A DNA stretch of 64,000 nt. Source: Candidatus Hydrogenedens sp. (GTDB lineage: Bacteria > Hydrogenedentota > Hydrogenedentia > Hydrogenedentales > Hydrogenedentaceae). The DNA is taken from positions 1 through 64,000 of the forward strand of contig JBMFRC010000001.1 in assembly GCA_049968235.1 (NCBI GenBank), given 5' to 3'. Positions 1 to 49,595 of this stretch are shown here, one piece after another; within the stretch, counting starts at the first letter, position 1; every line of letters begins with the position of its first letter. The notes beneath the pieces were generated by a model. That model worked only from the letters and a program-made list of their open reading frames with translations. It did no database searches and was not told where the DNA came from. The position numbers and the translations under genes were made by a program.

Positions 1-229
1 ATTTTTGAACATTCGCACCTTGAATGTATAGTAACGCAAGTGTTTCTACATACGATAAATTGGGGCTTGTTATGTAGTATATTTATTCCTGCCCGGGGAT
101 GAGATATATGCCAGAAGATGAACCCATGCATTCCTGCCTGCTTGTAATAAATACATTTTCCCAGGGGCTATCATAAATTTTACCATTCCCCTCAACAGGT
201 AAATACGAATATCATATTTCCCATTTCAG

Positions 230-345
230 AGCAAATGATTATTTGCCTATACAAAGAGAGACATTACCATACAGGCGGGGTTTGGTGCGTTTTAGGAACT
301 GCTTGTCTGGCAGGACTTTCTATCTATTTTTCAGCAGTGGCAGGC
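230..345. repeat. Copy A of a duplicated ~100-150 nt non-coding element; copy B is at 45446-45592
   Basis: agcaaatgattatttgcc...caggcgggg...tgtctggcaggactttc aligns at about 75% identity, with indels, to 45446-45543. Similarity continues more weakly through cagcagtggcaggcaagggagga / caccacggaggacacggagggac. Confidence 0.6.
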
Positions 346-459
346 AAGGGAGGAATTTCGGACATATCGGATTGTTTTGATATGATGGCTGGGGAAGAAT
401 GATGTTTTTATCTTCTTGATTTAAATTTGTCTTATAATAAAGGTAATGATATTAAGGTG

Positions 460-492
460 GATTATAATAGGATTATAATAGGATTATAATAG
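460..492 (+). repeat. 3 x 11-nt perfect tandem repeat gattataatag ending immediately before the ATG at 493
   Basis: Direct reading: gattataatag x3. Each unit contains a TATAAT hexamer. No SD lies between the repeats and the ATG. Confidence 0.9.
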
Positions 493-28400: not shown

Positions 28401-29982
28401 TTGATGATTGTACAACAGTTCCTTTTACATTGAATGAATATTGATAGGAGGGTCCTTCGGATTCATTTGCCAATGCCCTGTTAACTTTTACTTTCAAGGT
28501 AGCGGTTTGAGAACCACTTACCTGACCGGAGGCAATTCCTTGATTGTTTACGGGTATAATACTTAACCATGATGGGAATTGTGTTGTGTCAATTTCCCAT
28601 GCAATCGTTTCTTCTCCATCGTTCCAGAGAGCCAGTGTCTCTTCCGCACGAGTTTCACCAAAATTAATCTGTGTGGGAAGGACAACCAATTTCGGGGCTC
28701 GAGATGCTTCCATTTGCACATTAATAACAGAAGAACCCCAACTGGAATTTATTGTAATATTCCCCTGGTATTCGCCAGGTTGCAATATTGTTGGATTTGC
28801 TTCAACAGTAATGGTTTGAGTTCCGCCCGCATCAATATTCCCAGTGGTAGGAGTAATTTTCAGCCAATTTGAGGTATCCGGAATATCTGATGTCCACCGC
28901 CATGCAACAGGGGCAGAATTGTTGATTGTAAAGGTCTGCGTTTGTATCTCACGAATCTTTCCAAAATTAATTAAAGCAGGATTTACCGTTAATGCCCGTG
29001 TTCGCATCCGAACGTTTACAGTAATAGCATAATTGGTGGTGGTATCCCGTATTTGAAGGGTACCTGAATAATCATTTGCAGGGAGGTTTGCAGGGTTTAC
29101 GATAACTGGGACATCTATAGATTGGGCAGGAGGAATATTAAATTGTGGATTTTGAACAGATAGCCATAATTGCGCATCCTGGGATACTCCTATTTGTATA
29201 GATACCTGTTGTGTCCCCAAATTGGAAACTTTTATTATCTGTTGTGCTTGCTGTTCGATTAAACCAAACTGCATCTCATTTGGCGTTACTTGTAATGCGG
29301 AAACTTCCATTGATATGGGAAGGGAAATTTCTTGAGAACCCGCAGTTATTCTTACTGTAGTTTGATAAATACCAACGGCTAAACCACTTCGATTTACGCG
29401 AAAATTCAAAGTTACATTTTGACCGGCAGGGACTTCTCCACTTACAGGTGTTACAGACAGCCATCCTGCGTCTGATGGAATTGTTACTCTCCAATTCGTT
29501 TTAATTGTACTTTGGTTTACTATGTTTGCTTCTAACTCTGTAGCAACCGTTCCGAAATTCAGAGAAAGAGGGCTAACGGATATATTGACAGTTCCTGGTT
29601 TGGTAATACTTACAGTTATCTTCTTCGTATCTCCGACACTTTTAATTATCACCTCTCCTAAACTGGTTCCATCAGAAATACTCGAGCGGTCTGCTATTAA
29701 ATCTAATTGTTGGACTTTTCCTCCGGATAAGGTACCTTTTATTTTGCTGGCTGTGGTTACACCTCCATCATTAGATAATTTCAACCAGATGTCTGATGCC
29801 TCTGCTTCCCATGACCAGTTCCCACTCTGGCTAAATACAATGCGAACAGTTTCTCGCACAGAGGTTTCACCAAAGGTTACCGTTTCTGGTTCTACATAAA
29901 AATGAACCCATGGACAACCTGTTAGTGTTAAAACAATTAAAATGGGAGCAATAATTTTTATTATTACCATCTGTTGCCTCAT
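25468..29982 (-). CDS. Giant (1504 aa) surface lipoprotein with multiple Ig-like (DUF1573/ASH-like) repeats and a central vWA (MIDAS) domain
   Basis: Lipobox LTLTGC. Repeated ..L.FG.V..G....F.I.N.G...L.W.. units. vWA with ILLDASGSM (DxSxS). Paralogous to 30027-33863. Confidence 0.7.
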   Translation of the reverse strand: MRQQMVIIKIIAPILIVLTLTGCPWVHFYVEPETVTFGETSVRETVRIVFSQSGNWSWEAEASDIWLKLSNDGGVTTASKIKGTLSGGKVQQLDLIADRSSISDGTSLGEVIIKSVGDTKKITVSITKPGTVNISVSPLSLNFGTVATELEANIVNQSTIKTNWRVTIPSDAGWLSVTPVSGEVPAGQNVTLNFRVNRSGLAVGIYQTTVRITAGSQEISLPISMEVSALQVTPNEMQFGLIEQQAQQIIKVSNLGTQQVSIQIGVSQDAQLWLSVQNPQFNIPPAQSIDVPVIVNPANLPANDYSGTLQIRDTTTNYAITVNVRMRTRALTVNPALINFGKIREIQTQTFTINNSAPVAWRWTSDIPDTSNWLKITPTTGNIDAGGTQTITVEANPTILQPGEYQGNITINSSWGSSVINVQMEASRAPKLVVLPTQINFGETRAEETLALWNDGEETIAWEIDTTQFPSWLSIIPVNNQGIASGQVSGSQTATLKVKVNRALANESEGPSYQYSFNVKGTVVQSSTNLTPVTVQTSMSVPQIPEVTIVGEGTDNNGIPVLNFAIEENEQEFVIQNTGKGTLEWKIVTTDIPGWITSINPTQGALGKGKEQKIKVAVSRDTLTYLGDVYELFIQTSDPENPVVKIIIEIQVPKKVIIGAQPGALNFGPGEILKTFDVANLGDPGTALDFLLIPNKEWISVFPESGLSYGIEGPIKEWKEISVSIDREGLDGANSSGQIKIIGRKTVNGVKVIDETVTPIFITITASAPTLTVETAPPNLRIPSLMRYVMTLRDVQQRAISLPEAFLPTLADKFIITEDDLPLDIQESSRFLIPMVKSERLVQHKGTILILLDASGSMFQSASSLEEQEIAGANDPIRELYIRTLPAFIDDIPDNYQIGIGIFNEREWFGSSVRMLVNNDGEPIFTFNKDIVKNRLLSMDIIDHGATALLPAITSGALEMLDADGDHIPFDVSDDRIMLVITDGKLTTPPGQISPVVDFLKGSRVRPFFLCWGENVNKNILVQLIEETGGHLYSTRNKITESVDNVGKPISKPLFSTLADWLETDSNDPCDRSIAKDIQSQLLFEFVALNQMSGATVKIDLAFNSPSDDGSPCLLDQGAISTAFGHTQIDLLKYANDVRLGQIKLRTDGIDTNSQTVDIVVYADYIQRNINSLQFSVGSVGGNPSMTMSVRQPTFAEGGLIPDWNFNQLGSILQFTSPNNQPLDYGAFGSLCVLHFENVTQPFQLQFDVVFPQITANAESKYFTHPNLFDVKEQPNLAPSNPYPRLETQPTMDANYVITLPDDTYDLVVNIYNDGGSHRPTSVGLYWDVEALTGEFFGNIVKPDEEDRIIYENGIPYELHIPIERGELLPGTYQGILHFSFDSIFNNPIERFVYVYCTILPPEITVIPTVLNFNSPNTVEGQSFIIRNTGQSTLSWSFDRASLPASGYTFSKLAGSVAPYAGGGTEDVVTITVNKTQIDVFNPIIPIISNAVNGTVNLVLNVSK

Positions 29983-30026
29983 GCGAAGGCTCCTGTCTTC
30001 TAATTCTTAATGTTATTGTTTATTTA

Positions 30027-33000
30027 TTAATTTGCCACTGTAATGTCTATCTTTTCGGAAGCAAATATATCTGTATTAATAATTACATTTCCTGAAGTCA
30101 TAGTTCCGGGTATAAGACCTGTTCGGTCTATAAATAAAGTAACTGTTTCCGTTTCTCCCGGAGACAATTCGGAATCGGGAGTATTGGAATTACCGGATAA
30201 TCCGTATTTAATATCTGTAACCCATGAGGGATACGATGTTATTTGCCAATTGAATGTATCCAATCGGTTATTATGAACGATAAATGTAATGGAATTGTTC
30301 CCTACGGGAATGTCCAATCGTGTTGGAACTATAAATTTTCCGGGAATGTTCTTATCGTTTGGAGCAGGGTCCTGGAAATCAGTAATACCATCTTTATCGT
30401 TATCCCAGGCACCTGTACTTTCTGGGTCAAAGGTTAATCCTGCAAGTCCTGCGATTGTTGTAGATGGTCCAGCGACTTTTGCCGATATAGTAATGGGGAG
30501 GAAGCCATCAATATAAGTAGGGCCACCGGGATAAAGGAAATACTTGGTGCGTGAAGATTGCCCTATACTTCCGATGTATACCAGAGATTCGTTATCAACA
30601 CGCATGGCAAGATTTAAGACAGGGTCTGTATCTCCAAAAGATTGCACATACGCATCCAAACCTGTGATTGTAATTTTAAATAGATTCCCGAAGGCACCAT
30701 ATTTGAATGCTTTATCTTCAGAATTTAATAGAAGGTATACACCATCACCTTCATTAATAAATCGCCAACCATCGTTGGTAGTGATAAGCCCATCTCCGGC
30801 TAATTCAACCTTCATATTTATATTGGCAAGGAGTAAGTTCCATTGTTCCGCTGTTACATTGTTCGGTTTTTGTAAGAAATAGCGTGTTCTGAGGAAATAG
30901 ACATCTCTTGGAATGTAATCTGCACGGACAAATACTTCTGCCTGCCAGGTTCTTTGAGTTGAATTGTTGGGGTCATTCCCGTAGAACAAACCCGAAGTAA
31001 CTAAAGATAATTGACCTGCACGGACATCGCCAATATAAGCAAATGCATCTTCTTCAAAAATACCTGTCAGGGAAGGTAAATTATTGCCGGGCTGATATTC
31101 AAATCGGATGGTATACTTAAAATCTTGTTGTTTAGGTGTGATATAGGTTAAAACAAGTTGATTTTTTAATTCCTCCCAGACACGACCTGCTGAGTCTTCT
31201 AATGCTAATGTTATATTTTCCCATGCTCCTGCGGTGGTTACGCCTTGTAATTTTATAATTCCATTTCCATCATTAGAAGTAATTGAAATTTGTTGATTTA
31301 GAACCACACCTGTAGTTGCAAGAGCAGGATTAGTTCTTATTGTAACTTTTGTAGAGCCACTGGCAGATATCGTGCCCTGAACAGGTTCTATATTGGTTAT
31401 CCATGCCGGCAAATTACGGGTATCTGCCTGCCAGCCTAAATTGTCTTTCCCTTCATTATAAATAAAGAAGGTCAAATCATTGGGTTGATTATTCATATCG
31501 GGACGAAGTACACAGGATTTTTGCCCACCTAACAGTTGAAGCAAACCATTTACATCATTGGCAATATATAAATGTCCACCAGTCTCTTTAGCAAGGGGTA
31601 TTAAATCTGCAGTATTCACAGAACCCCCAGAAGCAAATCCCAGAGGATACAAACGAATTAGATTATCGTGTGCTTTTTCTTTGATTTCACTTGCATCAAT
31701 AGTAGATGCATTATCCCATCCGTCTGAAATAAATATAATGGATTTTACATCTGCATCATCAAAAGGTAGTGGGTTCTTCAAATCTTCGGCAATTAGCCTA
31801 TCCACAGCCTCTGAAAGTGCATCATAAATATCCGAAGCACCCATTAAGTTGGGGGGAACATAGAAAGTTTCTAATGATTCTTTTAGTAATTCCTTATCCG
31901 TTGTAAAAGAACGGATTAATCGCCTTGTTTGCTGGCGGTCATTATGGAACATCAACGCAATTTGATAGGAAGCGGGTAGGTCGTAAATAAAATCAACAAC
32001 TGCCTTTTTCACTTTTTCTATTGCTTCTCCGGGCAACATGGGATTATCTTTATTATCCACACCTGCATAATACATACTGCCCGTATAATCTAATAGAATA
32101 ATCATATTCCCTTTGATATTTTCCGGTCCAGTAAGGAAATAATTTGTTTCCCTTAAATCTAAGGGAACGCTGTCTTCGGATATGGTAAGACTAATTTTGG
32201 AACGGTCTACAGGTGTAATTGTTGGGATGGCTCGTGAAGATGAATCACGTAATAAGAATACATATCGCATTACATAAGGCGGTCTACTACGATTCAAGGC
32301 TCCTTCGATTCGCAAGGGTTGTTTTTCGACACGCACTTTTATGGTTTTGGATTCAACACCATTTAATGGAGTTGCTTCATTAGGGAATATAATAGGATTA
32401 CGGTCCATTGCTTCTATTGTTATTGTGCGATATTCTATATCTTCTTGAAGATTATCCCGATTAATGGTAACTAAAATTTGCACACCGTCAATTAATAGAT
32501 TTAATTCGCTGGGATGATAGAAATCTTCAGGATTACCATCTTCACCATTGGCTCCTCCGACAACAGGTCGAACATCGGCAATTACAGGATTGGCTTTTCC
32601 TTCATCTTCATGCGTAATACGGAAATACAATTTTGAATCTCGTGGTCCAACATTAGCAATCCAAAATTCCTTTTGAACATCTTCCTGTCCAAAATCCAAT
32701 ACATCCAAAGGGATTATTTCCGGACGTGCAGTTGTTTCCTGAGGTGGCTCCGAAATGGCTATTTCGGGGAGGCTTATCTGTTCAATTTTAATTGGGATAA
32801 TTAACAAACAACTTCGTGTATCTATAATAATGGAATATTGTCCTGCTCCCAAAGTAATCTCTTTGGGCTTGGTAACAGTTACAGAAATCTCGACTTTGTC
32901 ATTTGGATTTACTATTCCTGCAGAAGGAGTAGCGGAAATACTATTGATAGCGATACCTGTAGGTCCGACTACCTGAAGATTCCATTGGGCTTGTGTGCTA

Positions 33001-33863
33001 CTGCTGTTTGTTAATGTCAGTTTGGACACGGGTAAATTCGTTGTGGTACTGTCGGATGTCAATGATTCTTTTGTTACAGACAGAACCAATTGGGCAGGTT
33101 CTGCAGTAAAACTAGTTTCAGGACATATCTTTGCAAAACGAAATTCAACCAATTGAATACCTAAGGAGGATTCAAAAAACAAACCAAAATCTGTCGACAC
33201 AGTTTCATCCCAACGGACTGTAACAGGGGTACTCCCTCCTGCGGGTAAAGTCCCTAAATTAGGAGATACAGAAATATCTGCGGGAATATTGGTTCGCACG
33301 GAAGAATTATTTAAATCAGGGACATATTTAACTGACCAGTTAAAACTCTCAGTACCTACATTTTGAACGGTTACAGTAGTTTCAGTTACATCTGGACGGA
33401 TAGTAAATACCTGAGGGGTTACAGATAAAGCACTGCTAACTTCCATCGAAACAGTTACAACCTGAGTTTTTCCCGAGACACGAAACTGAAGCCCTACATC
33501 TTTATATTCACCGGAAGATAAACCGTTTCTTGAGACTTTTGCATGAATTAACTGAGATGTAGATGTTTGCCCGGATGTTGGTTCCGCAGTTAACCACGGG
33601 ATATCTTGTTCTACCCATTGTTTTTGACTTGCATTCCAGACGACTTCAGTTAAAGACCATTTTATACCCAAACTACTTAATGACCTTATATACAAGGATT
33701 TTTCGATTGCTTTATCTCCAAAGGACAAAGCCTGTGGAGACACTTCAAATCCTGTTGTAAATGGACAACCACTTGCAAGAACAAGGATGAATATTAGCAA
33801 TCCGAGATGAAGTAAAAAAGTAATAGATGGATATTTCCGTTTATTCATAGGGGCTCCTTCCAA
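30027..33863 (-). CDS. Giant (1278 aa) surface lipoprotein, Ig-like repeats plus central vWA; paralog of 25468-29982
   Basis: Lipobox LVLASGC. vWA MIILLDYTGSMYY (DxTxS). Block ..RDSSSRAIPTITPVDRSKISLTISEDSVPLDLRE.. is colinear with ..RDVQQRAISLPEAF..FIITEDDLPLDIQE.. of the paralog. Confidence 0.7.
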   Translation of the reverse strand: MEGAPMNKRKYPSITFLLHLGLLIFILVLASGCPFTTGFEVSPQALSFGDKAIEKSLYIRSLSSLGIKWSLTEVVWNASQKQWVEQDIPWLTAEPTSGQTSTSQLIHAKVSRNGLSSGEYKDVGLQFRVSGKTQVVTVSMEVSSALSVTPQVFTIRPDVTETTVTVQNVGTESFNWSVKYVPDLNNSSVRTNIPADISVSPNLGTLPAGGSTPVTVRWDETVSTDFGLFFESSLGIQLVEFRFAKICPETSFTAEPAQLVLSVTKESLTSDSTTTNLPVSKLTLTNSSSTQAQWNLQVVGPTGIAINSISATPSAGIVNPNDKVEISVTVTKPKEITLGAGQYSIIIDTRSCLLIIPIKIEQISLPEIAISEPPQETTARPEIIPLDVLDFGQEDVQKEFWIANVGPRDSKLYFRITHEDEGKANPVIADVRPVVGGANGEDGNPEDFYHPSELNLLIDGVQILVTINRDNLQEDIEYRTITIEAMDRNPIIFPNEATPLNGVESKTIKVRVEKQPLRIEGALNRSRPPYVMRYVFLLRDSSSRAIPTITPVDRSKISLTISEDSVPLDLRETNYFLTGPENIKGNMIILLDYTGSMYYAGVDNKDNPMLPGEAIEKVKKAVVDFIYDLPASYQIALMFHNDRQQTRRLIRSFTTDKELLKESLETFYVPPNLMGASDIYDALSEAVDRLIAEDLKNPLPFDDADVKSIIFISDGWDNASTIDASEIKEKAHDNLIRLYPLGFASGGSVNTADLIPLAKETGGHLYIANDVNGLLQLLGGQKSCVLRPDMNNQPNDLTFFIYNEGKDNLGWQADTRNLPAWITNIEPVQGTISASGSTKVTIRTNPALATTGVVLNQQISITSNDGNGIIKLQGVTTAGAWENITLALEDSAGRVWEELKNQLVLTYITPKQQDFKYTIRFEYQPGNNLPSLTGIFEEDAFAYIGDVRAGQLSLVTSGLFYGNDPNNSTQRTWQAEVFVRADYIPRDVYFLRTRYFLQKPNNVTAEQWNLLLANINMKVELAGDGLITTNDGWRFINEGDGVYLLLNSEDKAFKYGAFGNLFKITITGLDAYVQSFGDTDPVLNLAMRVDNESLVYIGSIGQSSRTKYFLYPGGPTYIDGFLPITISAKVAGPSTTIAGLAGLTFDPESTGAWDNDKDGITDFQDPAPNDKNIPGKFIVPTRLDIPVGNNSITFIVHNNRLDTFNWQITSYPSWVTDIKYGLSGNSNTPDSELSPGETETVTLFIDRTGLIPGTMTSGNVIINTDIFASEKIDITVAN

Positions 33864-33912: not shown

Positions 33913-34512
33913 TTATTGTTTTGTTTTTTCAGCAAAGACCACATTAACCCCTGCATTTACAAGCGTTTGATAAACTGGTTCAAAATCCTTATAAAAACTA
34001 CCATCATCTTTTACTGTCCATTCAGGACTTAATGTTACGGTATCACCGGGACCCAAACCGCCGGCATTCACATTGGCTATTAATGGTGTCCAATCTCGAA
34101 TATCATTGTCCGGACCGGATATATCCAGATATTCCAGATATTGCATTCCTGCAATAGGTGTTATGTCTGTAATATAATTATTCCCTAAATCCAACCAGAC
34201 CAAATTTTTTAAATCGCGTAAAGGGGAGATGCTTATAATATTATTATCTCTTAAGTCTAATTTAACCAGAGAGGTGCAATACTCAAGCCCTCGTAAATCT
34301 GTAATACCCATACCCCGGGCTGTTAATTCCGTTATAGAATCCAATTCACCCGTACAGAGAATAAAGAAGGGTTTACCGATTGCACTACGAATGGCAGTTT
34401 CCAATGCCCTATCCGGGAACATAATTGATGAGCCCTGTAAGAAACAACACCCCGAAATTGAACTTATCAGGACACAAATACCTATTAAGTTGAATATTAT
34501 TTTCATTCTCAT
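33913..34512 (-). CDS. Lipoprotein with leucine-rich repeats (LRR)
   Basis: Lipobox ISGCC. LRR units LVKLDLRDNNIISISPLRDLKNLVWLDLGNNYITDITPIAGMQYLEYLDISG. Confidence 0.7.
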   Translation of the reverse strand: MRMKIIFNLIGICVLISSISGCCFLQGSSIMFPDRALETAIRSAIGKPFFILCTGELDSITELTARGMGITDLRGLEYCTSLVKLDLRDNNIISISPLRDLKNLVWLDLGNNYITDITPIAGMQYLEYLDISGPDNDIRDWTPLIANVNAGGLGPGDTVTLSPEWTVKDDGSFYKDFEPVYQTLVNAGVNVVFAEKTKQ

Positions 34513-42245: not shown

Positions 42246-43190
42246 TTATAGAATCCCTTTAAAGTATTCAATCGTATATTTCAACCCTTCCTTAAGCGGA
42301 ATTTTTGGTTCCCAGTTCAGTTTTTCTTTCGCAAGAGAAATATCTGGTTTTCTTCGACAGGGGTCGTTTTCGGGTAGGGGTTTAAAAATAATTTCCGAAG
42401 ACGAACCTGTCATCTCACAAACTAATTTTGCCAATTCCAGAATAGTAAATTCTCCGGGATTCCCTAAATTTACAGGACCGGTAAACCCTTCACAATCCAT
42501 CATCCGAAGGATACCTTCAATTACATCGCTAATGTAACAAAAAGAGCGTGTTTGAGAACCATCTCCGAAGACAGTTATGGGTTCGTTTCGCAATGCCTGC
42601 ACAATAAAATTACTGACCACCCTTCCATCATTAATCAACATGCGAGGACCGTATGTATTAAAGATTCGTATTACACGAATGTCCACTCCATTTTGACGAT
42701 GATAATCAAAAAACAAAGCCTCCGCCACACGTTTGCCCTCATCATAACAACTACGTTTGCCAATAGGGTTCACATTGCCCCAATAGGTCTCAGGCTGAGG
42801 ATGCACAGTAGGGTCTCCGTAAACTTCTGATGTACTGGCTTGTAAAACGCGCGCCTTCACCCGTTTTGCCATACCCAATACATTTAACGCTCCCATAACA
42901 TTGGTTTTAATCGTTTTTACTGCATTGAATTGATAATGAACTGGTGAAGCCGGACACGCTAAATTAAATATTCGGTCTACTTCAAGAAGGATGGGTTCGG
43001 TTATATCATGGCGAATAATTTCAAATTGTGGATGCCCTATTATGTGCTGAATATTTTGTTTCCTACCTGTAAAAAAATTATCCAGGCAAATAACTTCCTC
43101 CCCGCGTCGCAATAAAGCCTCACACAAATGTGAACCGATAAAACCTGCCCCACCTGTAACTAAATTTACTCGTCTCATATCTTGCTCCAA
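42246..43190 (-). CDS. NAD-dependent UDP-glucuronate decarboxylase / UDP-xylose synthase-like SDR
   Basis: [36 protein letters not shown] closely matches the UXS/ArnA-type extended-SDR N-terminus. 314 aa. Confidence 0.75.
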
Positions 43191-43229
43191 ACAAGTCTGT
43201 TCTTTACTATTATATGATTTTTTCCCCGA

Positions 43230-43739
43230 TTATCCCAATTCCGAATGTATGAATGCTTCCCAATTTATTTTCACCACACCTTTTTTTACCGTTATTGGTT
43301 TGTTATGAAAACAAATTCCTGCACCATGCACCTCCCCGGGAAACAAAACCATAAATTGACCCGGCACATTTTGAATTACATTTATCTTGGATACATCTAC
43401 ATTATAAAACCTAACATCTTTTTTAATATCATACTCGGTTTTCACTTGAGCCATAGATTCAGGAAGCCATCCTATACCTTCTTCCCCTGAAAGTGAGAAT
43501 TGGACATCAATAAATTTCTTATGTGATTCAAAAATCGCTTCCGAAATTTCTTTTGTGGTATAGGACATAACCCGGGCTTTTATATCTTCTTTATAGATAA
43601 ACTCCATATCTGTATCCGGGCTATTTTCTTTTAGTCCCTGAATATAATTCAATACGAAATTTCCTATCTTCCCACGGAAATACCGTTCCCAATTTTCAAA
43701 TCGGTCAACTATCATGATTTTAACACCTCCTCGCAACAA
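43230..43739 (-). CDS. YhcH/YjgK/YiaL (DUF386) family protein
   Basis: FIDVQFSLSGEEGIGW...FMVLFPGEVHGAGICFHNKPITVKKGVVKI parallels E. coli YhcH YLDIQIVLKGQEGMTF...FVVFYPGEVHKP...VRKAVVKM. Probable start MIVDRFENW at 43715. Confidence 0.7.
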   Translation of the reverse strand: MLRGGVKIMIVDRFENWERYFRGKIGNFVLNYIQGLKENSPDTDMEFIYKEDIKARVMSYTTKEISEAIFESHKKFIDVQFSLSGEEGIGWLPESMAQVKTEYDIKKDVRFYNVDVSKINVIQNVPGQFMVLFPGEVHGAGICFHNKPITVKKGVVKINWEAFIHSELG

Positions 43740-44476
43740 GCAGTGCGTATTTTCTTTGCAAAGGACACACCCGGAATATCATAAATTTTTACAGTCCCCC
43801 CTGCAAATTTTATTAAAGCAGAACCACCTGCAATATCCCATAGCATAATTTCATCTTGAATAAAAGCGTCAATCCGACCACAGGCTACATAAGCCAGAGA
43901 TAATGCAGATGTACCTAAAAAACGAACCCTTTTATACTTCTTTAATTCATGGATATATTGCTGAAATTCATTTTCCGTATATGGACGAAACACCGGAAGT
44001 CCTGTGGCAACAATTCCATGCTTCGCCTGATTTATAGGGGAAACCTTGATGGGACTATCATTTAGGAATGCACCATTTTCCTTTGTTCCCGAAAATAATT
44101 CTTGTTTCAGAAAATCATAAACGATACCCAGTAAAAATTCATCATCTTTCATAAGAGCAATTGAGATAGCACACAACGGTATTTTCCTGCTGAAATTCAA
44201 TGTTCCATCCAATGGGTCAATTATCCAGAAAGGCTCATTCATAACATATTCACGAACCCAACCTCGTTCTTCAGATAAAATAGCAAATGGTGTCGATTCC
44301 AGCACATCTATAATTGCAGATTCAGATTCGCGGTCTGCCAGTAACTTTATGTCTCGGTCGTCTTCATAAATAACTTCGCAGGGCTCTCGAAAAAGGTCTG
44401 ATAAAATAATACCTGCTCGATGTACTGCGGTAATACCTAATTCTAAATATTCCTGAACATTCATTATAAACACCAC
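43712..44476 (-). CDS. Inositol monophosphatase family protein (IMPase/CysQ-like)
   Basis: WIIDPLDGTLNF is the IMPase metal-binding motif. 254 aa. Confidence 0.75.
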   Translation of the reverse strand: MVFIMNVQEYLELGITAVHRAGIILSDLFREPCEVIYEDDRDIKLLADRESESAIIDVLESTPFAILSEERGWVREYVMNEPFWIIDPLDGTLNFSRKIPLCAISIALMKDDEFLLGIVYDFLKQELFSGTKENGAFLNDSPIKVSPINQAKHGIVATGLPVFRPYTENEFQQYIHELKKYKRVRFLGTSALSLAYVACGRIDAFIQDEIMLWDIAGGSALIKFAGGTVKIYDIPGVSFAKKIRTACCEEVLKS

Positions 44477-44477
44477 C

Positions 44478-45146
44478 TTAATGGTATAAATTTTTACCCC
44501 GTTTCTGTGCTATAAAAGTACTGATAATATGTGTAATGATACAGAATACATCTTCAACGGGTCCGTATTCATCTTTCGTACTTGCAACAAGAAGTCCATA
44601 ATCACATAACGAAATCATTCTACCTCCGTCACAACCTGCTATACCTATCGTTTTAATTTCATGCTCCTTTGCCCATTCCACTACCTTTATAACATTGGGA
44701 CTATTCCCACTAACAGACATTGCTATTAATAAATCACCTTCCTTAGCAAAAGCACGCAATTGCCCAATAAATATGTTTTCATAACCTTCATCATTTCCTA
44801 ATGCAGTAATTACCGCCTGGTTATCTGATAAATTTATAGCACGAATAGGCGGACAATTTGTAACATAATTTCCTACGACCAAATCATTAACCCAATGAGA
44901 GAGGACTGAAGAACTACCACCGTTACCCGCAAGAAATAGGGTCTTCCCTTCACTGATTTTATTCCACATTACATCGGCTATTTTTGTTAACACATCTTTA
45001 TTTAAATGCGTAAGAATTTGGCACAAACGTTCACAATACCCATTATAGTAATCAGTAAAACTGGGAGATGATTGAAACAAATTTTTCATGAAATACATAT
45101 AAAATACTCCGTAGATTATTGTTAAAAAGATATTTAATTTTAACAT
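44478..45146 (-). CDS. gmhA: SIS-domain phosphoheptose isomerase-like protein (GmhA-like)
   Basis: TLFLAGNGGSSSVLSHWVNDL and LLIAMSVSGNSPNVIKVVEWAKEHEIKTIGIAG parallel E. coli GmhA [20 protein letters not shown] and [32 protein letters not shown]. True start probably the internal MKNLFQ. Confidence 0.7.
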   Translation of the reverse strand: MLKLNIFLTIIYGVFYMYFMKNLFQSSPSFTDYYNGYCERLCQILTHLNKDVLTKIADVMWNKISEGKTLFLAGNGGSSSVLSHWVNDLVVGNYVTNCPPIRAINLSDNQAVITALGNDEGYENIFIGQLRAFAKEGDLLIAMSVSGNSPNVIKVVEWAKEHEIKTIGIAGCDGGRMISLCDYGLLVASTKDEYGPVEDVFCIITHIISTFIAQKRGKNLYH

Positions 45147-45445
45147 GTTAAATCTAAAATACCTACGAATATTGTTATCACATTCCTTAATGCATAAACA
45201 AAAATAAATACAGGAAACAGTATAAGATATGCTAAATACAGGAGCAAATTATCTTTGCCCCGAATATAGCACAAGCATTTATTCCTTCTTTTGCAATTAT
45301 AAGTGGTGCGATTATTTTAATTTATCAGAGTAATACAATTATCCTGCTTTTGATAAATTCAATTTATTAATTAGCACCGGCATTTCTCTCTTTGCTTTTT
45401 ACCACGAATGGTGCGAGATGTAAATAAGCATAAAGTATTTATTAT

Positions 45446-45592
45446 AGCAAATGATTATTCGCCATTACATAGAGATGCACTTGCCATGCAGGCGGGTTTT
45501 TGGAATGTGTTGGTAAAAATCGTTTCTGTCTGGCAGGACTTTCAGCAAGACAATGAGATAATTTTCACCACGGAGGACACGGAGGGACACAT
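45446..45592. repeat. Copy B of the duplicated non-coding element
   Basis: See the feature at 230-345. Reading frames are not conserved between the copies (indels), so it is not protein-coding; ORF 45408-45680 is rejected. Confidence 0.6.
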
Positions 45593-45765
45593 AGATATTT
45601 TTTTCTTATCACAGAAAGCACGGAGAACACAGAGAAGGGAACAGAGAATAGGTATGAGTATGGATATATTTATTCTATGATTTATATTCTCCTTTCCTTT
45701 TTTCTCTGTGTTTCTCTGTATTCTCTGGGGTGGAGTATTTTTTTTCTCACCACAGAGAGCACTAT
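45560..45765. repeat. Degenerate CACGGAG(R)(R)AC / CAGAGAA direct repeats plus an imperfect inverted repeat
   Basis: caccacggaggacacggagggacac at 45567-45591, gcacggagaacacagagaagggaacagagaa at 45625-45650, reverse-complement-like ttttctctgtgtttctctgtattctctg at 45700-45727, and caccacagagagcac at 45749-45763. Confidence 0.5.
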
Positions 45766-45966
45766 CTTTTCTTGTTAATGACTGCATATAATTTGAAGTG
45801 GATATATGAGGAATTAAGGGGGCAAAAGGAGAAGTATGCATAGGTAACCAAAAGATAAAAATACTCACAGAAAATAACAAATAAAATGGGTAAAAGTAGG
45901 GATACAGACTTTTGTATTTTAATTTTTCATCGGGATTTTATCTCATAAAAACATGTATAATTTATA

Positions 45967-46001
45967 CTCTTACCTCTTACCTCTTACCTCTTACCTCTTA
46001 C
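45967..46001. repeat. (CTCTTAC)x5 perfect heptanucleotide tandem repeat next to the cas2 3' end
   Basis: Direct reading: ctcttacctcttacctcttacctcttacctcttac. Confidence 0.9.
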
Positions 46002-46031
46002 AAAAATTGTTCAGAGGTCTCGTGTATTTTT

Positions 46032-46358
46032 TTATACTATAATAAGGTTGGGGTTTGAGATGGGTGTATAGTAGTTTAGTCCGTTTCTGTTGATAATTTT
46101 GATTTTATTTGCATCAGCATGGCAAAGGGGTATGATATGTATAATAAGTTGTCGGTTTTGGTCATTGGGTTGTTCGTTGGAGAGGTAATCACGAATGGTT
46201 TCCTGTAGTTTTTCGATAAGGAGTTCTTTTTCATATTCATCGAGGTCGCCCATGAAAACGGAGAATTGTATGTGCGAAGTTCCTACTTCTTCGAGGAGGT
46301 AGGTTATTTTGTTTCGTAGTTTATCGTTTCCTATGTCGAATAATAGTAGTGTTTGCAT
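46032..46358 (-). CDS. cas2: CRISPR-associated endoribonuclease Cas2 (108 aa, apparently intact ORF)
   Basis: MQTLLLFDIGNDKLRNKITYLLEEVGTSHIQFSVFMGDLDEYEKELLIEKLQETI has the Cas2 N-terminal strand (llv.YDi), helix, vF.c pattern and acidic helix. Sits 13 nt downstream of the cas1 remnant. Confidence 0.6.
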   Translation of the reverse strand: MQTLLLFDIGNDKLRNKITYLLEEVGTSHIQFSVFMGDLDEYEKELLIEKLQETIRDYLSNEQPNDQNRQLIIHIIPLCHADANKIKIINRNGLNYYTPISNPNLIIV

Positions 46359-46371
46359 AGGTTGATTTGTG

Positions 46372-47340
46372 TTATAGGTTGTATTTATTTTGTTGATTTA
46401 GGGTTTGTGTTAGTTTTATGGCTGCGAGCAGGATGTGTTTTTGGTAGTTGGTATTGGGGTCTTTGGGGGTAGGTTCATAGAGGCGTTCTATGTAAAGGGA
46501 GGAGAGTTTTTTTGTGTTTCTTTTTCGAGTAATCCGTTTTTCTGGAGTTGTACATTTATTCCTTGTCGTATGTAAGCGAGTAAGGGTGTATCGATGAGGG
46601 GTTGACGGAAAGGTTCGATAAAGAAGACGAGGGACTGTTTGTTGTTCTGTAGGGTGTGCAGAAACCCTGCATATGGGTCGAGTCCGGCGAGGGTTAAGGC
46701 ACGGAAGCATTCGGAGTAGAGGATGCCGTAACCGTAGTTGAGTGCAGAATTGACGGGGTCTTTCGAATGTCGGTGTGTTCTGTGGGTAAAGTTATAATTG
46801 GCTGGGATAAGTTGTTTGAAATATGACCAGTAGATGGATGAGGCGTGTGCTTCGGTGGACATGATTTGTTGTTTTGCGTGGGATATATTTTCAGTGTTGA
46901 TGGATTTTAATTTTTCGATGAGTGGGTAAATAGTATTGTGAAGTGTATCTTCGATTTGGGCTAAGTATGTTTTGTATCGACACAGGAATTAGAATTGGTT
47001 TTCGATTTTTGTTTGTATGTATTTTTTTGGCAATTTGTATGCCTAAGCCGTTCTGGATGGCTGTGTATTGGTTCCATCGGTTCTGGATATGGGGGTGATT
47101 GTATATAGGCTGGATAAAAGTGATGGAGTTCCCGTAGGGCTTACATACGGTTAAGGCGATGTCTTGCTGGCTTGCGAGTGAAAGTGCTTCAGCGGAGATG
47201 GAAAATCCTTGGGTGAAGATGATGATGTGTGAGAGTTTGCTGGATGGGATTGTTTTAAGGGTTTTGTTTTCGCCGATAATTTTGAACATGTTTTTGTGTC
47301 TACCGACACGGATATTCTTTTCAATAAGGATGAGATGCAT
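46372..47340 (-). pseudogene. cas1: cas1 pseudogene with at least two frameshifts
   Basis: Fragment 47340-46891 (frame 0) is the Cas1 N-terminal domain. Fragment 46862-46488 (frame 2) carries DPVNSALNYGYGILYSECFRALTLAGLDPYAGFLHT...LVFFIEPFRQPLID, the Cas1 catalytic helical core, with the conserved Asp of lv.Dl.EpFR replaced by Phe. The C-terminus returns to frame 0 at 46710-46372. Total is about 323 codons. Confidence 0.7.
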
Positions 47341-47416
47341 GTTAAAGTCCTCCTCTTCATTATTTTTATTACATCTAACCTTAAAAAGTTGTATTATTTG
47401 CTATGTATTTAGTCCC

Positions 47417-48643
47417 AATCAATTTCGAGTTTGAACCAACCCATAGGAAGGGATGCCTTTGTTATTTTTTTTGTGATGTAGTTAATTTATGAGACTTTGG
47501 ATAAGGTATTTGGTCAGAACATCTGTCTCTCTTTGCTTTTCCCCATTTTTTGTCATTTGTATCTCCTTGTGAAAATAGTAATGTTATAGTTTTTGATAAA
47601 GAACCTGTGCCATAACCTAATTGTAAAAATATTTTTTTGCCTCTTTCTATCCTAATATCTTCAGGGATGTCATATTCATTTTTATTTACAGAATTAAAGA
47701 ATTCCAGTTGTTTATCAATTAAAATTTCTGAGTATTTGCGTAAACAATCTTGAAAACTCTGTGTATCGTTAAGAACATTTTTAAGATATTTTATCTATTC
47801 TCCGTTATTATATTTATATTCATCCAACATAAATTTTAATGCTTGTTGGTCTAAATAGAAATCTATAATTATTTCTTTACCTTTAGGAATCAGGCATTCA
47901 GCAAATATATCAAATGGTTTAGTTGAAAATTTGTCTCCATTTTTACTTTTTACTTTTATTTGACATATTCCAAAATTGTCGATAGGAATCTCTTTAGAGT
48001 CTCTGATTACTAAAAATTTAAATAAATCATATTTTGCATCATAATTCGAATTATCTACTTCTAATGTAGTATATTTTTCTATATTTTTATTAAGGAGAAT
48101 ATTATTAATATTATTTGACTCTTTAATTAAACAATTAGTGACTGCATTTCTTATACATCCCTTTATACTTGAACCTGGAATAAAAAATTTCCCAAATGGG
48201 TATTTTATAAAGGAAAGGATTGGAGGAAGAGAAGTAGATTCTTGACATATAGATTTTGACTGAGAATTTTGGGATTGTTTTTTCTCAACTTGTTTCTGTA
48301 TTTTTCTTAGTTCTGGAGGAAGTGCTGTATGTTTAGGCGATATGGACCTTGATTGTTTATTTGTTTTTTCTCCTCTTGTTCCAAAATCAGCATATATAGG
48401 AAGAGAATAGCGAATATATTCAGGGTCGGGACGAAAGGAGGGTTCTTCAATAATCTTTAAATCAGTTTCATAATCTTCGCAATTATCCTGAAAATATTTC
48501 ATGACATCTTTTAGACAGAATAATAGCTGTTTCTCGTCAATGTCAATGTAATATTCAAAATTCTGATATTCTTCGCCATCTGATATATGGATGGGAGTGA
48601 TAGGTGTTAGTTTGAATTTGCCATGTTTCTTTTTATCGTTCAT
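47417..48643 (-). pseudogene. csm5: csm5 (type III-A Cas7-family RAMP) interrupted by an in-frame TAG at 47795-47797
   Basis: N-terminus KFKLTPITPIHISDGEEY and G-rich loop FFIPGSSIKGCIRN are colinear with S. thermophilus Csm5 (TFKLSLLTLAPIHIGNGEKY ... PYIPGSSLKGAIRT), as are LFKFLVIRDSKEIPIDN and LFNAIRVSDSKPFDN. After the TAG the frame continues ...IFLQLGYGTGSLSKTI... (matching Csm5 YLGAGSGAWTKTL) to a stop at 47417, about 409 codons in total. Confidence 0.7.
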
Positions 48644-48656
48644 TGTTTTTCTCCTT

Positions 48657-49595
48657 TTAAGGATGTTTGAAATAGATATTGAATGCGAGACCGGAACGCC
48701 AGATAGGATGAGGTGATGAGTCGTAACTGATGGCGATTACATCCCCCTTAGGCATTTCTTTGATAACAGGGAATTTACTTCCTTCTATACACATACGAAC
48801 AGATTGTTTGGGTTCATCATACCCGGCAATGCCATGTATCCACCCACCTCGCATAGTGCATTCATAAGATGCGATATTGGTGAGAATACCATTTTCAAAT
48901 TCTTCCAAAGTAGGATGATAAAGACTGAGTATTGCGGGACTGAGTATTGCGGTAGCTTTTGGTGGACTTTCCTGCCCACTTATTTTGAGCGTATCATTTT
49001 CTTCAATAATATATTTTGATTCGAAAGGTTCAATTTTTTTATAGTAAAATGTCCGAAACCTAAACTGCGTTCACCACCAATACCCAGTTTACCCAAAGCG
49101 GATAGAAAATTGACAAATGATTCTTTTTTCTCTTCTTCTAATTTAACAAAAAACCACAATCCGACATCTTCTTCGCTATTTATCTCATAAAAATTTTGAG
49201 GGTAGGCTGTAGTTTGATTAGTAACCCGGTCAATGACGGTGGAAATTTTATAATTTTCTTTAACGGTTTTTTTGGAGGGGAAACCTTCTTTATTATTTAT
49301 CAGGTCATTCATTTCTTCATTCAGGAGAAAAGTTGTTCCTGGATTCTCTTCATCACCGTCTAAATAGGGATAATCTTCTTTTTTTTGGGAAAAGTTCTTT
49401 TAATATTTGCTGGGTTTCTTCTGCTTTTTGGAATATTGATGAAGTGGTTAGAAGAATGACATTATCAAAATCACCAATGTTAACAGAAGAAATAATCGGC
49501 CCCTATTGTGTTCCACCGGTGGGTGCTTCATCTACTCTCCCGTAAGGGTCATTTGTTCCTACAAAACTTAACAGTAGAGAAGATTTCCTCCCCAT
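48657..49595 (-). pseudogene. csm4: csm4-like (Cas5-family RAMP) pseudogene with an in-frame TAG (49503-49505) and two homopolymer-associated frameshifts
   Basis: Three frame segments: 49595-49380 (MGRKSSLLLSFVGTNDPYGRVDEAPTGGTQ*GPIISSVNIGDFDNVILLTT...), a shift at the A8/T8 run 49379-49386, then 49378-49060 (...FVNFLSALGKLGIGGERSLGFGHFTI, resembling the Csm4 G-rich loop LQYSGLGGKRSSGFGRFEL), a shift at the T-run 49034-49041, then 49070-48657 (..LEEFENGILTNIASYECTMRGGW...). About 313 codons. Sits directly upstream of csm5, as csm4 does in III-A operons. Confidence 0.5.

What the first reader, a model, noticed from the sequence alone, without database searches (positions are those of the whole stretch)
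45446..45592. A 100-150 nt non-coding element present twice in the window, once at the cas-island edge (second copy at 230-345)
230-320 (agcaaatgattatttgcctatacaaagagagacattaccatacaggcggggtttggtgcgttttaggaactgcttgtctggcaggactttc) and 45446-45543 (agcaaatgattattcgccattacatagagatgcacttgccatgcaggcgggtttttggaatgtgttggtaaaaatcgtttctgtctggcaggactttc) align at about 75% identity with several indels. A weaker purine-rich similarity follows (cagcagtggcaggcaagggagga vs caccacggaggacacggagggac). The indels destroy any common reading frame, so this is RNA- or DNA-level conservation. Copy B lies where a CRISPR leader or array would be expected downstream of cas2. Copy A lies about 150 nt upstream of a membrane-protein gene at the window start, and more of it or an array could lie beyond position 1. 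Candidates are a leader-like sequence, a small RNA gene family, or a shared regulatory 5' region.
Basis: seen in the sequence. Interest (0 to 1): 0.6.

Follow-up and report, generated by a model that had tools for sequence, protein, structure and literature searches.

The report
Two-copy species-specific non-coding repeat
A roughly 125-base stretch of non-coding DNA really does occur twice in this Candidatus Hydrogenedens genome piece, but it is found only in this species, shows no sign of being a CRISPR leader or a shared gene switch, and is most likely a leftover of duplicated or inserted DNA.

Summary
The repeat is real. Window 199-320 and 45420-45543 (both + strand) align at 73-75% identity with many frame-breaking indels (E about 1e-11), and it is the only non-coding repeat in the 64 kb. 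The organism is Candidatus Hydrogenedens sp.

- **CRISPR leader:** no array adjoins either copy. The "cas island" is a decayed type III-A remnant. A strain of the same species carries copy B and its whole intergenic region next to NAD kinase instead of cas2.
- **Shared 5' regulatory region:** the copies face their nearest gene starts in opposite orientations. Sister species keep only the 60-100 nt nearest each gene and lack the element.
- **Small RNA:** no Rfam match, no shared promoter or terminator, weak folding z-scores and no compensatory changes. It is not excluded.

No further copy was found in GTDB genomes, JGI metagenomes, IMG/VR, phages or plasmids. Both copies sit in enlarged, species-specific intergenic DNA at synteny breakpoints. 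Contigs of another assembly end exactly at their outer edges.

Best reading: a species-restricted, low-copy repeat left by duplication or insertion. Interest is low.

The parts
199..320 (+). Copy A, core of the repeat (122 nt)
   Evidence: BLASTN to 45420-45543 gives 72.9% over 129 columns, E 1.9e-11. nhmmer finds only this copy and copy B in the window. It lies 172 nt upstream of the DUF6141-like gene start at 493.
45420..45543 (+). Copy B, core of the repeat (124 nt)
   Evidence: Alignments. It lies 321 nt upstream of the true SIS start (45098; 206-aa protein P0001). It lies 488 nt beyond the cas2 stop at 46032.
231..246 (.). Palindrome GCAAAT-GATT-ATTTGC in copy A (6-bp hairpin or possible dimer-binding site)
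   Evidence: Read from the sequence and predicted as a stem. In copy B (45447-45462) one arm reads ATTCGC. That gives an A.C mismatch on the + strand RNA and a G.U pair on the - strand RNA.
45447..45462 (.). The same palindrome in copy B, with one arm mutated
268..316 (+). Candidate hairpin 2 in copy A: CC-AUA-CAGGCGGG ... CUUGUCUG-GCA-GG with a variable loop
   Evidence: RNAalifold consensus gives 10 pairs. Three are G.U pairs, so the stem can form only on the + strand. Two pairs change on one side only (G-C to G.U) and none is compensatory.
45485..45539 (+). Candidate hairpin 2 in copy B (loop 8 nt longer and different in sequence)
   Evidence: The single-sequence minimum-energy fold of copy B does not use this stem.
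304..320 (+). Identical 17-mer TGTCTGGCAGGACTTTC, copy A
   Evidence: 2 matches in the window, 0.10 expected.
45527..45543 (+). Identical 17-mer TGTCTGGCAGGACTTTC, copy B
321..353 (+). Purine-rich tail after copy A (doubtful part of the repeat)
   Evidence: It aligns weakly to 45555-45585, but the right flanks tested alone score 36 against 34 +/- 5 for shuffles.
45544..45585 (+). 11-nt insertion plus purine-rich CACGGAGGACACGGAGGGAC tail after copy B (doubtful part)
235..402 (+). 55-aa ORF over copy A, annotated by NCBI as hypothetical protein ACP5UA_00005; probably spurious
   Evidence: Its frame is not shared with copy B.
45408..45680 (+). 90-aa ORF over copy B, annotated as hypothetical protein ACP5UA_00180; probably spurious
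   Evidence: No Pfam hit. A full HMMER search of 1.84 billion representative proteins returned only itself and one repetitive junk sequence at E 2.6e-4.

Best explanation
The two copies are diverged members of a low-copy, species-restricted, non-coding repeat. It is a relic of duplicated or inserted DNA and is not a working part of the CRISPR locus or of the neighbouring operons.

Inferred history: after this Hydrogenedens species split from its nearest sampled relatives, extra DNA was gained at two rearrangement junctions. One junction lies upstream of the DUF6141-nupC-thiD operon and the other upstream of the SIS-domain sugar-phosphate operon. Both pieces of extra DNA contained the same roughly 125-nt segment. 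The two segments have since drifted to about 74% identity with many small indels.

Their present effect, if any, is passive. They provide short stretches of identity (17 and 14 nt) and mark places where the chromosome differs between strains.

Shown: the repeat exists, is non-coding, is absent from sister species at both loci, sits at synteny breakpoints, and is independent of the cas genes. Inferred: that it has no function, and how it arose.
For: 1. **Absent from sister species at both orthologous loci.**
   - Relatives with 80-88% identical SIS protein have a 130-245 nt intergenic region and a Gfo/Idh/MocA neighbour. They share only about 60 nt with the window.
   - Relatives with 80-85% identical DUF6141 protein have 114-231 nt intergenic regions and other neighbours. 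One of them shares only window 395-470.
2. **No match in public collections.** Only chance-level matches to the conserved blocks were found in 185,579 GTDB species genomes, JGI metagenomes, IMG/VR, phages and plasmids.
3. **Independent of cas.** L214, from the same species (99.6% identical), carries the whole intergenic region 45099-46030 including copy B. It then continues with NAD kinase and PilZ, not cas2.
4. **No gene-like features.**
   - No coding signal, and the overlapping ORF is an orphan.
   - No Rfam family.
   - Folding z-scores of only -0.95 to -1.97.
   - No compensatory pairs on the + strand.
   - No sigma-70-like promoter or terminator called at equivalent positions in both copies.
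5. **Opposite orientation** relative to the nearest gene start.
6. **Contig ends at the repeat edges.** In a conspecific short-read MAG, contigs end at window 196 and 45553, the outer edges of the two copies. The source contig itself seems to start just upstream of copy A, because the ORF over copy A is locus tag _00005. This is as expected for junctions of structural variation or repeated DNA.
Against: - **Uneven identity.** Runs of 17 and 14 identical bases occur together in only 1.6% of column shuffles, and the top three runs have p = 0.06. This hints at constraint or gene conversion.
- **Hairpin-like pattern.** The arms of a + strand hairpin are conserved while its loop differs in sequence and length. 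Two changes in the stem keep pairing (G-C to G.U). A structured RNA would look like this.
- **Copy number unknown.** The rest of the genome could not be searched, so the true copy number is not known.
- **Source not identified.** No mobile-element hallmarks (terminal inverted repeats, target duplications, a transposase or an integrase) were found, so where the DNA came from is not established.
Confidence: 0.45

Rival explanations
1. The copies are paralogous small RNA genes on the + strand, about 95-125 nt long. The RNA would have a 5' hairpin (GCAAAU-GAUU-AUUUGC), a single-stranded A/G-rich stretch, a 3' hairpin (CAGGCGGG...UGUCUG) and a conserved tail GGCAGGACUUUC. In copy B transcription could run on to the strong hairpin plus U8 at 45603-45745.
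For: - Stem arms are conserved while the loop varies, and there are one-sided G-C to G.U changes.
- The three G.U pairs make hairpin 2 specific to the + strand.
- Identities cluster into blocks.
- About 30 nt upstream of the putative start are also conserved (199-229), as a promoter would be.
- A very stable hairpin followed by a T-run lies downstream of copy B (-48.5 kcal/mol, z = -5.0).
- Both copies lie in long intergenic regions.
Against: - No Rfam match.
- Weak z-scores of -1.9 and -2.0, and the minimum-energy fold of copy B does not use hairpin 2.
- No compensatory pair on the + strand.
- The single change in hairpin 1 favours the opposite strand.
- No sigma-70-like promoter was called upstream of either copy, and the terminator-like calls sit at different positions in the two copies.
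- No homologue in any other sampled Hydrogenedens genome or metagenome.
- No complementary target for the 17-mer within the window.
Confidence: 0.2
2. The copies are CRISPR leaders, or relics of them. Copy B would be the leader of an array that was lost when the adjacent type III-A locus decayed. Copy A would be the leader of a second array lying beyond the start of the contig.
For: - Copy B lies 488 nt past the cas2 stop, where an array is expected.
- Leaders of arrays in one genome are typically similar to each other, and CRISPR leaders are about 100-500 bp (PMC4330368).
- Two assemblies break just upstream of copy A, and arrays often break assemblies.
- Short degenerate direct repeats (TTTTC..ACCACRGAGRRCAC) follow copy B, and a weak counterpart follows copy A.
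Against: - No CRISPR array or spaced repeat exists anywhere in the window, including the 198 nt left of copy A and the 488 nt between copy B and cas2.
- The degenerate repeats are spaced 39 and 141 nt apart and are low-complexity. The tail similarity between the copies is not significant.
- A conspecific strain keeps copy B with no cas genes beside it.
- The core is not AT-rich relative to the genome (40% and 37% against 36.6% GC).
- No promoter was called.
Confidence: 0.1
3. The copies are recombination sites, or repeat ends, that bound a 45-kb chromosomal block (196-45553). Strains would differ in what is joined to the outside of each copy.
For: - Contig ends of GCA_049969095.1 fall at 196 and 45553, within 3 and 10 nt of the outer edges of the homology. 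By my rough estimate this is unlikely by chance, at about 1e-3 for contigs of about 6 kb.
- The source contig also starts near copy A.
- Strains differ to the right of copy B.
- The copies are in direct orientation.
- Both loci are synteny breakpoints relative to sister species.
Against: - No integrase, transposase or recombinase gene is in the window.
- The 45 kb between the copies consists of housekeeping genes whose local order is conserved in sister species.
- Crossover within 74%-identical repeats would place junctions inside the copies, not at their outer edges.
- The known strain difference on the right begins at about 45899-46030, not at 45553.
- The MAG is very fragmented, so its contig ends are frequent.
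Confidence: 0.1
4. The copies are a shared cis-regulatory region, such as a riboswitch-like 5' leader, an operator or an enhancer, that controls the adjacent operons.
For: - Both copies lie upstream of operon starts (172 nt and 321 nt).
- They contain a 6+6 palindrome.
- The conserved 17-mer contains CTGGCAGG, which resembles a sigma-54 -24 box (read from the sequence).
Against: - The orientation relative to the gene is opposite in the two copies, which excludes a shared 5' UTR RNA.
- The two operons are functionally unrelated: nucleoside transport with thiD, against SIS, inositol monophosphatase and epimerase.
- Sister species keep the genes and the gene-proximal promoter region but not the element.
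- The sigma-54 -12 GC is absent in copy A and mis-spaced in copy B (read from the sequence).
- No Rfam cis-regulatory family matches.
Confidence: 0.05

Closest known systems
Species-specific dispersed intergenic repeats of bacteria (the general class that includes REP/BIME, ERIC, BOX/RUP and Correia-type elements; from my own knowledge)
   Same: The element is short (about 125 nt), non-coding and intergenic, and contains small palindromes. It has sharp homology boundaries and is restricted to one species. The copies have diverged by substitutions and small indels. It lies at sites of rearrangement, and short-read contigs end at its edges.
   Different: Only two copies have been seen. There are no terminal inverted repeats, no target-site duplication and no cognate transposase. 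There is no sequence similarity to any named family, and the genome-wide copy number is unknown.
CRISPR leader
   Same: It lies downstream of cas2. Its size falls within the leader range of about 100-500 bp (PMC4330368). A second similar copy exists elsewhere in the genome.
   Different: No CRISPR repeat adjoins either copy. A conspecific strain has the element without cas genes. It is not AT-rich relative to the genome. The cas locus is a pseudogenised remnant.
Sibling (paralogous) small regulatory RNAs
   Same: There are two similar copies of about 100 nt in long intergenic regions. Blocks are conserved and a variable loop lies between conserved stem arms.
   Different: No shared promoter or terminator signal was found. 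There is no covariation and no expression data. There are no homologues in related species.
attL/attR direct repeats of integrated elements
   Same: The copies are direct repeats with an identical 17-nt core, 45 kb apart.
   Different: The intervening DNA consists of conserved housekeeping genes with no integrase. The variable DNA lies outside the repeats, not between them.

Membership tests
CRISPR leader | Directly adjoins the first repeat of a CRISPR array | tested here: not met
   No spaced direct repeats were found in 1-500, in 45147-46031 or anywhere else in the window. Sequence to the left of window position 1 is unavailable.
CRISPR leader | Linked to the adaptation genes cas1-cas2 | tested here: inconclusive
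   Copy B lies 488 nt from cas2, but cas1 is split and the locus is decayed. A conspecific MAG has copy B beside NAD kinase instead. Copy A has no cas gene on its downstream side.
CRISPR leader | AT-rich and carries the array promoter | tested here: not met
   Core GC is 40% and 37% against 36.6% for the window. No sigma-70-like site was called in either copy. Promoter rules for this phylum are unknown.
MITE / transposon-derived dispersed repeat | Terminal inverted repeats and target-site duplication | tested here: not met
   The ends GTAAATA... and ...GGACTTTC are not complementary. The flanks are AACAG|...|TATCT for copy A and GAGAT|...|AGCAA for copy B, with no duplication.
MITE / transposon-derived dispersed repeat | Many copies per genome | not testable with these tools
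   Two copies in 64 kb. The remaining roughly 357 kb of the source contig and the other contigs could not be scanned. The genome was not hit in the GTDB or JGI scans.
MITE / transposon-derived dispersed repeat | Absent from the orthologous site in relatives (empty site) | tested here: inconclusive
   Relatives lack it at both loci. However, the surrounding intergenic DNA and the neighbouring genes also differ, so no clean empty site is seen.
Trans-acting small RNA gene | Own promoter and intrinsic terminator at equivalent positions | tested here: not met
   No promoter-like call lies upstream of either copy. Terminator-like calls are at 299-313 in copy A and 45480-45492 in copy B, which are not equivalent positions.
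Trans-acting small RNA gene | Conserved secondary structure supported by covariation | tested here: inconclusive
   Only two sequences are available. The + strand has 15 consensus pairs, none compensatory and 4 one-sided. The - strand has 2 nominal compensatory pairs in a 3-bp long-range helix. z-scores range from -0.95 to -1.97.
Trans-acting small RNA gene | Expressed as a discrete transcript | not testable with these tools
   No transcriptome data are available.
Riboswitch / cis-acting 5' leader | Same orientation upstream of the regulated genes, and conserved with them | tested here: not met
   The orientations are opposite. The element is absent upstream of the orthologous genes in sister species. 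No Rfam hit.
att sites of an integrative element | Direct repeats flank a mobile island that encodes an integrase | tested here: not met
   The 45-kb interval encodes housekeeping genes. There is no integrase or transposase. Local gene order is conserved in relatives.

The most novel reading that the evidence does not exclude
The element is a functional, lineage-specific module. One possibility is a new sibling small RNA, with conserved stem arms, a variable loop and an invariant 17-nt tail. Another is a recombination or leader-type site that marks the boundaries of a 45-kb chromosomal block. In the second case one copy would be an orphaned leader that survived the decay of a type III-A CRISPR locus, and the other would sit next to an unassembled array or variable region at the contig start.
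Probability: 0.12. Interest if true: 0.45.

Novelty: new member of a known kind. Interest (0 to 1): 0.2.

Why it matters
It matters little by itself. It shows that proximity to cas2 is not enough to call a CRISPR leader: here the cas genes are a decaying remnant, and the same intergenic DNA occurs in a strain that has no cas genes at that position.

It also flags two annotated "hypothetical proteins" (ACP5UA_00005 and ACP5UA_00180) as probable artefacts laid over a non-coding repeat. And it marks two positions where Candidatus Hydrogenedens genomes are rearranged and where assemblies break.

If the repeat turned out to be expressed, or to be a recombination site, it would be a first handle on non-coding elements in an uncultivated phylum. 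Nothing found here requires that.

Tried and rejected
- **Known RNA family.** Rfam at gathering thresholds over the whole window, and at lenient E-values around both copies, gave only two tRNAs and noise.
- **Protein-coding or pseudogene origin.**
  - Translations of the two copies look locally alike (ANDY.P, QAGF, VWQDF). But substitutions are spread 12/12/8 over codon positions and the indels shift the frame.
  - The 90-aa ORF has no homologue among 1.84 billion representative proteins and no Pfam hit.
  - No remnants of the genes that flank these loci in sister species are present.
- **More copies elsewhere.**
  - Exact-block scans of GTDB genomes (17-mer), JGI metagenomes (two-block pattern) and IMG/VR (three patterns) gave only chance matches. 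None extended into the rest of the element.
  - BLASTN against phages and plasmids found nothing.
  - An nhmmer profile of the pair found nothing in the window or in about 110 kb of sister-species DNA.
- **Six-frame trick.** I searched a concatenated six-frame translation of both copies against the protein database, to catch spurious ORFs laid over other copies. Nothing was returned, not even the known 90-aa ORF, so the attempt was uninformative.
- **Sequence upstream of window position 1.** All look-ups returned contigs that start inside the window. The source contig appears to begin at or near position 1.
- **cas2 look-up.** A search for other cas2-adjacent arrays found no record.
- **Sigma-54 promoter.** The 17-mer contains CTGGCAGG, but the -12 GC is missing in copy A and mis-spaced in copy B. 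Rejected by inspection.
- **dif/Xer-like site.** GGTGCG...ATGTAAAT lies upstream of copy B, but that part is not shared with copy A. Rejected.
- **Single circle or tandem junction 45553|196** as the cause of both contig ends. The shared CAA at both junctions predicts a contig start at 193, not 196. Weakly rejected.

Full report
**1. The observation**

The two regions were read directly and aligned.
- BLASTN gives 75.5% identity over 98 nt for 230-320 vs 45446-45543 (E 5.6e-11).
- A longer alignment gives 72.9% over 129 columns for 199-320 vs 45420-45543 (E 1.9e-11).
- A local alignment scores 138 against 55 +/- 7 for shuffled sequence.

Three blocks are identical: AGCAAATGATTATT, CAGGCGGG and TGTCTGGCAGGACTTTC. 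The 17-mer occurs twice in the window against 0.10 expected.

It ends at ...GGACTTTC (320 / 45543).

There is no third copy in the window. A self-comparison of the whole window finds only this pair and two adjacent paralogous genes.

**2. It is not coding**

ORFs cover both copies (235-402, 55 aa; 45408-45680, 90 aa). NCBI annotates them as hypothetical proteins ACP5UA_00005 and ACP5UA_00180.
- The two copies use different frames.
- The core gaps are 3, 2, 1, 1, 2, 1 and 2 nt long.
- Substitutions fall 12/12/8 on codon positions 1/2/3 of the 90-aa ORF.
- That ORF has no Pfam hit.
- A full HMMER search of 1.84 billion representative proteins found only itself and one repetitive junk sequence.

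**3. Organism and gene context**

Flanking proteins are named Candidatus Hydrogenedens sp. by NCBI and sit on a 421,442-bp contig. The ORF over copy A carries locus tag _00005. The window therefore starts at or very near the start of that contig (inference).

Copy A:
- It lies 172 nt upstream of a DUF6141-like membrane protein gene at 493-1083.
- That gene is followed by a NupC-type nucleoside transporter, ThiD and LexA, all on the + strand.

Copy B lies in a 933-nt intergenic region.
- To its left, 321 nt away, is the start of a minus-strand operon encoding a SIS-domain protein (true start 45098; 206 aa), an inositol monophosphatase, a DUF386 protein, an epimerase and AddB/AddA.
- To its right, 488 nt away, is the stop codon of cas2.

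The 3' end of copy A therefore faces its nearest gene start, while the 5' end of copy B faces its nearest gene start. No integrase, transposase or recombinase is encoded anywhere in the window.

**4. The "cas island"**

The cas genes occupy only 46032-49312 and are decayed.
- cas2 matches the Cas2 model only over its first 58 residues.
- cas1 is split into an N-terminal ORF (46891-47340) and a C-terminal ORF in another frame (46488-46862).
- A partial csm5 lies at 47795-48643.
- Two csm4 fragments lie at 48657-48908 and 48980-49312.
- There is no cas10, csm2, csm3 or cas6.

Housekeeping genes follow directly: a CoA-binding protein, ClpP, trigger factor, tRNA-Leu and Dxs. No CRISPR array exists in the window.

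**5. Strains of the same species**

Contig JBMFLO010000278.1 of GCA_049971155.1 (L214) is 99.6% identical to window 42933-45980.
- It has one SNP and one T-run indel up to position 45898.
- Identity then falls to about 85% from 45899 to about 46030.
- Beyond that point it is unrelated: it continues with NAD kinase and a PilZ protein instead of cas2.

Copy B and its whole intergenic region therefore exist without adjacent cas genes. The NAD kinase gene is not in the window.

In the other MAG, GCA_049969095.1:
- contig JBMFPN010000135.1 starts at window 196, 3 nt before the homology begins;
- contig JBMFPN010000150.1 ends at window 45553, 10 nt after the core homology ends.

For contigs of about 6 kb, two ends landing within 10 nt of the four repeat edges is unlikely by chance. 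My rough estimate is about 1e-3. I cannot say whether this reflects extra copies, strain-level structural variation at the repeat edges, or something about the flanking sequence. It is recorded as unexplained.

**6. Sister species**

SIS locus. Species whose SIS protein is 88%, 81% and 80% identical keep the SIS-to-AddB gene order. Upstream they have only 130-245 nt and then a divergent Gfo/Idh/MocA oxidoreductase. They share only the roughly 60 nt next to the SIS start with the window.

DUF6141 locus. Species whose DUF6141 protein is 85% and 80% identical keep the order DUF6141-nupC-thiD-lexA-M28-MFS. Upstream they have 231 or 114 nt and different neighbours. Only window 395-470 is recognisable, in the closer species.

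An nhmmer profile of the pair finds nothing in these loci. No remnants of the sister-species neighbour genes are present in the two intergenic regions. Both copies thus sit in enlarged, species-specific intergenic DNA at synteny breakpoints.

**7. Wider searches**

| Search | Collection | Result |
|---|---|---|
| 17-mer | 185,579 GTDB species genomes | 99 hits (about 70 expected by chance, my estimate); none extends into the rest of the element |
| Two-block pattern | JGI metagenomes | 113 hits, all chance |
| Three patterns | IMG/VR | nothing real |
| BLASTN of the element | phages and plasmids | nothing |

The family, at least with these blocks intact, is not present in other sampled Hydrogenedentota. 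The rest of this genome could not be scanned with the tools available. One of the homologue searches, a six-frame trick, was uninformative.

**8. Structure and signals**

Single-sequence folds are unremarkable: z = -1.86 and -1.97 on the + strand, and -0.95 and -1.49 on the - strand.

The + strand consensus has a 10-pair hairpin, CC-AUA-CAGGCGGG / CUUGUCUG-GCA-GG.
- The arms are conserved.
- The loop differs in sequence and is 8 nt longer in copy B.
- Three G.U pairs make the stem specific to the + strand.
- Two positions switch between G-C and G.U.
- No pair is compensatory.
- The minimum-energy fold of copy B does not use this stem.

The 5' palindrome GCAAAT-N4-ATTTGC is perfect in copy A. 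In copy B one change gives an A.C mismatch on the + strand and a G.U pair on the - strand, which conflicts with the strand implied by hairpin 2.

No sigma-70-like promoter is called upstream of either copy. The terminator-like calls are at non-equivalent positions.

Identities are somewhat clustered. Runs of 17 and 14 occur together in 1.6% of column shuffles, and the three longest runs give p = 0.06. This is suggestive of constraint or gene conversion but not decisive. The transition to transversion ratio is 11:11.

**9. Interpretation**

CRISPR leader. This reading rests only on position. It fails the defining test of adjoining a repeat, and it is weakened by the cas-free strain.

Shared 5' regulatory region. 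This is excluded by the opposite orientations, by the unrelated operons, and by absence of the element upstream of the same genes in sister species.

att sites. This fails because the 45 kb between the copies is conserved housekeeping DNA with no integrase.

Small RNA. This is not excluded, but it has no positive support beyond a plausible hairpin and block-wise conservation.

The reading I commit to (confidence about 0.45) is a species-restricted, low-copy, non-coding repeat. It was carried into two rearrangement junctions by duplication or insertion after the split from the sampled sister species. It has since drifted and has no demonstrated function.

Rival readings:
- sibling small RNAs (about 0.2)
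- leader relics (about 0.1)
- recombination or boundary sites (about 0.1)
- cis-regulatory module (about 0.05)

**10. Comparison with known classes**

The element behaves like the broad class of species-specific dispersed intergenic repeats. It is short, contains palindromes, has sharp edges, sits at rearrangement junctions and breaks assemblies. It lacks terminal inverted repeats and target duplications. It matches no named family and is known in only two copies. I therefore file it as a new, minor member of a known kind rather than as anything categorically new. Interest is low (0.2). The most novel reading still open, a functional small RNA or boundary site, has a probability of about 0.12.

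Noticed in passing
window 46032-49312 (- strand): Decayed type III-A CRISPR-Cas remnant. It comprises cas2, cas1 split into two ORFs in different frames, a partial csm5 and two csm4 fragments. There is no cas10, csm2, csm3 or cas6 and no array. ClpP and trigger factor follow directly.
   Followed up: partly
window 45598-45762: A very stable, imperfect 130-nt hairpin lies at 45603-45735 (-48.5 kcal/mol, z = -5.0 on +; z = -6.6 on -). It is built from CACRGAGRRCAC-type low-complexity arms and is followed by T8. A 24-nt direct repeat, TTTTTTTCTYAYCACAGARAGCAC, sits at 45598-45621 and 45739-45762. The motif occurs nowhere else in the window or in sister-species loci. It could be a MITE-like insert or a + strand terminator.
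   Followed up: partly
window 45899-46031; L214 2940-3080: Junction between strains. Identity between the window and the conspecific MAG L214 drops from about 100% to about 85% at 45899 and ends at about 46030. Beyond that point L214 has NAD kinase and PilZ where the window has cas2. The (CTCTTAC)5 microsatellite at 45967-46001 is contracted in L214.
   Followed up: partly
window 196 and 45553 (L001 start; L243 end): Contig ends of GCA_049969095.1 coincide with the outer edges of copy A and copy B. The 421-kb source contig also seems to begin just upstream of copy A, because the ORF over it is locus tag _00005. The cause is unknown.
   Followed up: partly
window 235-402 and 45408-45680: NCBI-annotated hypothetical proteins ACP5UA_00005 (55 aa) and ACP5UA_00180 (90 aa) are laid over the two repeat copies. 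They have no homologues and are probably annotation artefacts.
   Followed up: yes
window 459-492: A perfect tandem GGATTATAATA x3 ends exactly at the ATG of the DUF6141-like gene. It is absent from the 85%-identical sister-species locus L224.
   Followed up: no
window 9645-11099 and 11180-12547: Adjacent paralogous genes with a weak neutral/alkaline ceramidase N-terminal domain match. They are 69% identical at the DNA level over 1.2 kb.
   Followed up: no
window 25468-33863 (- strand): Two giant tandem genes (1504 and 1278 aa) made of BACON and Ig-like (HYDIN/Cep192-type) domains, followed by a small leucine-rich-repeat protein at 33913-34512.
   Followed up: no
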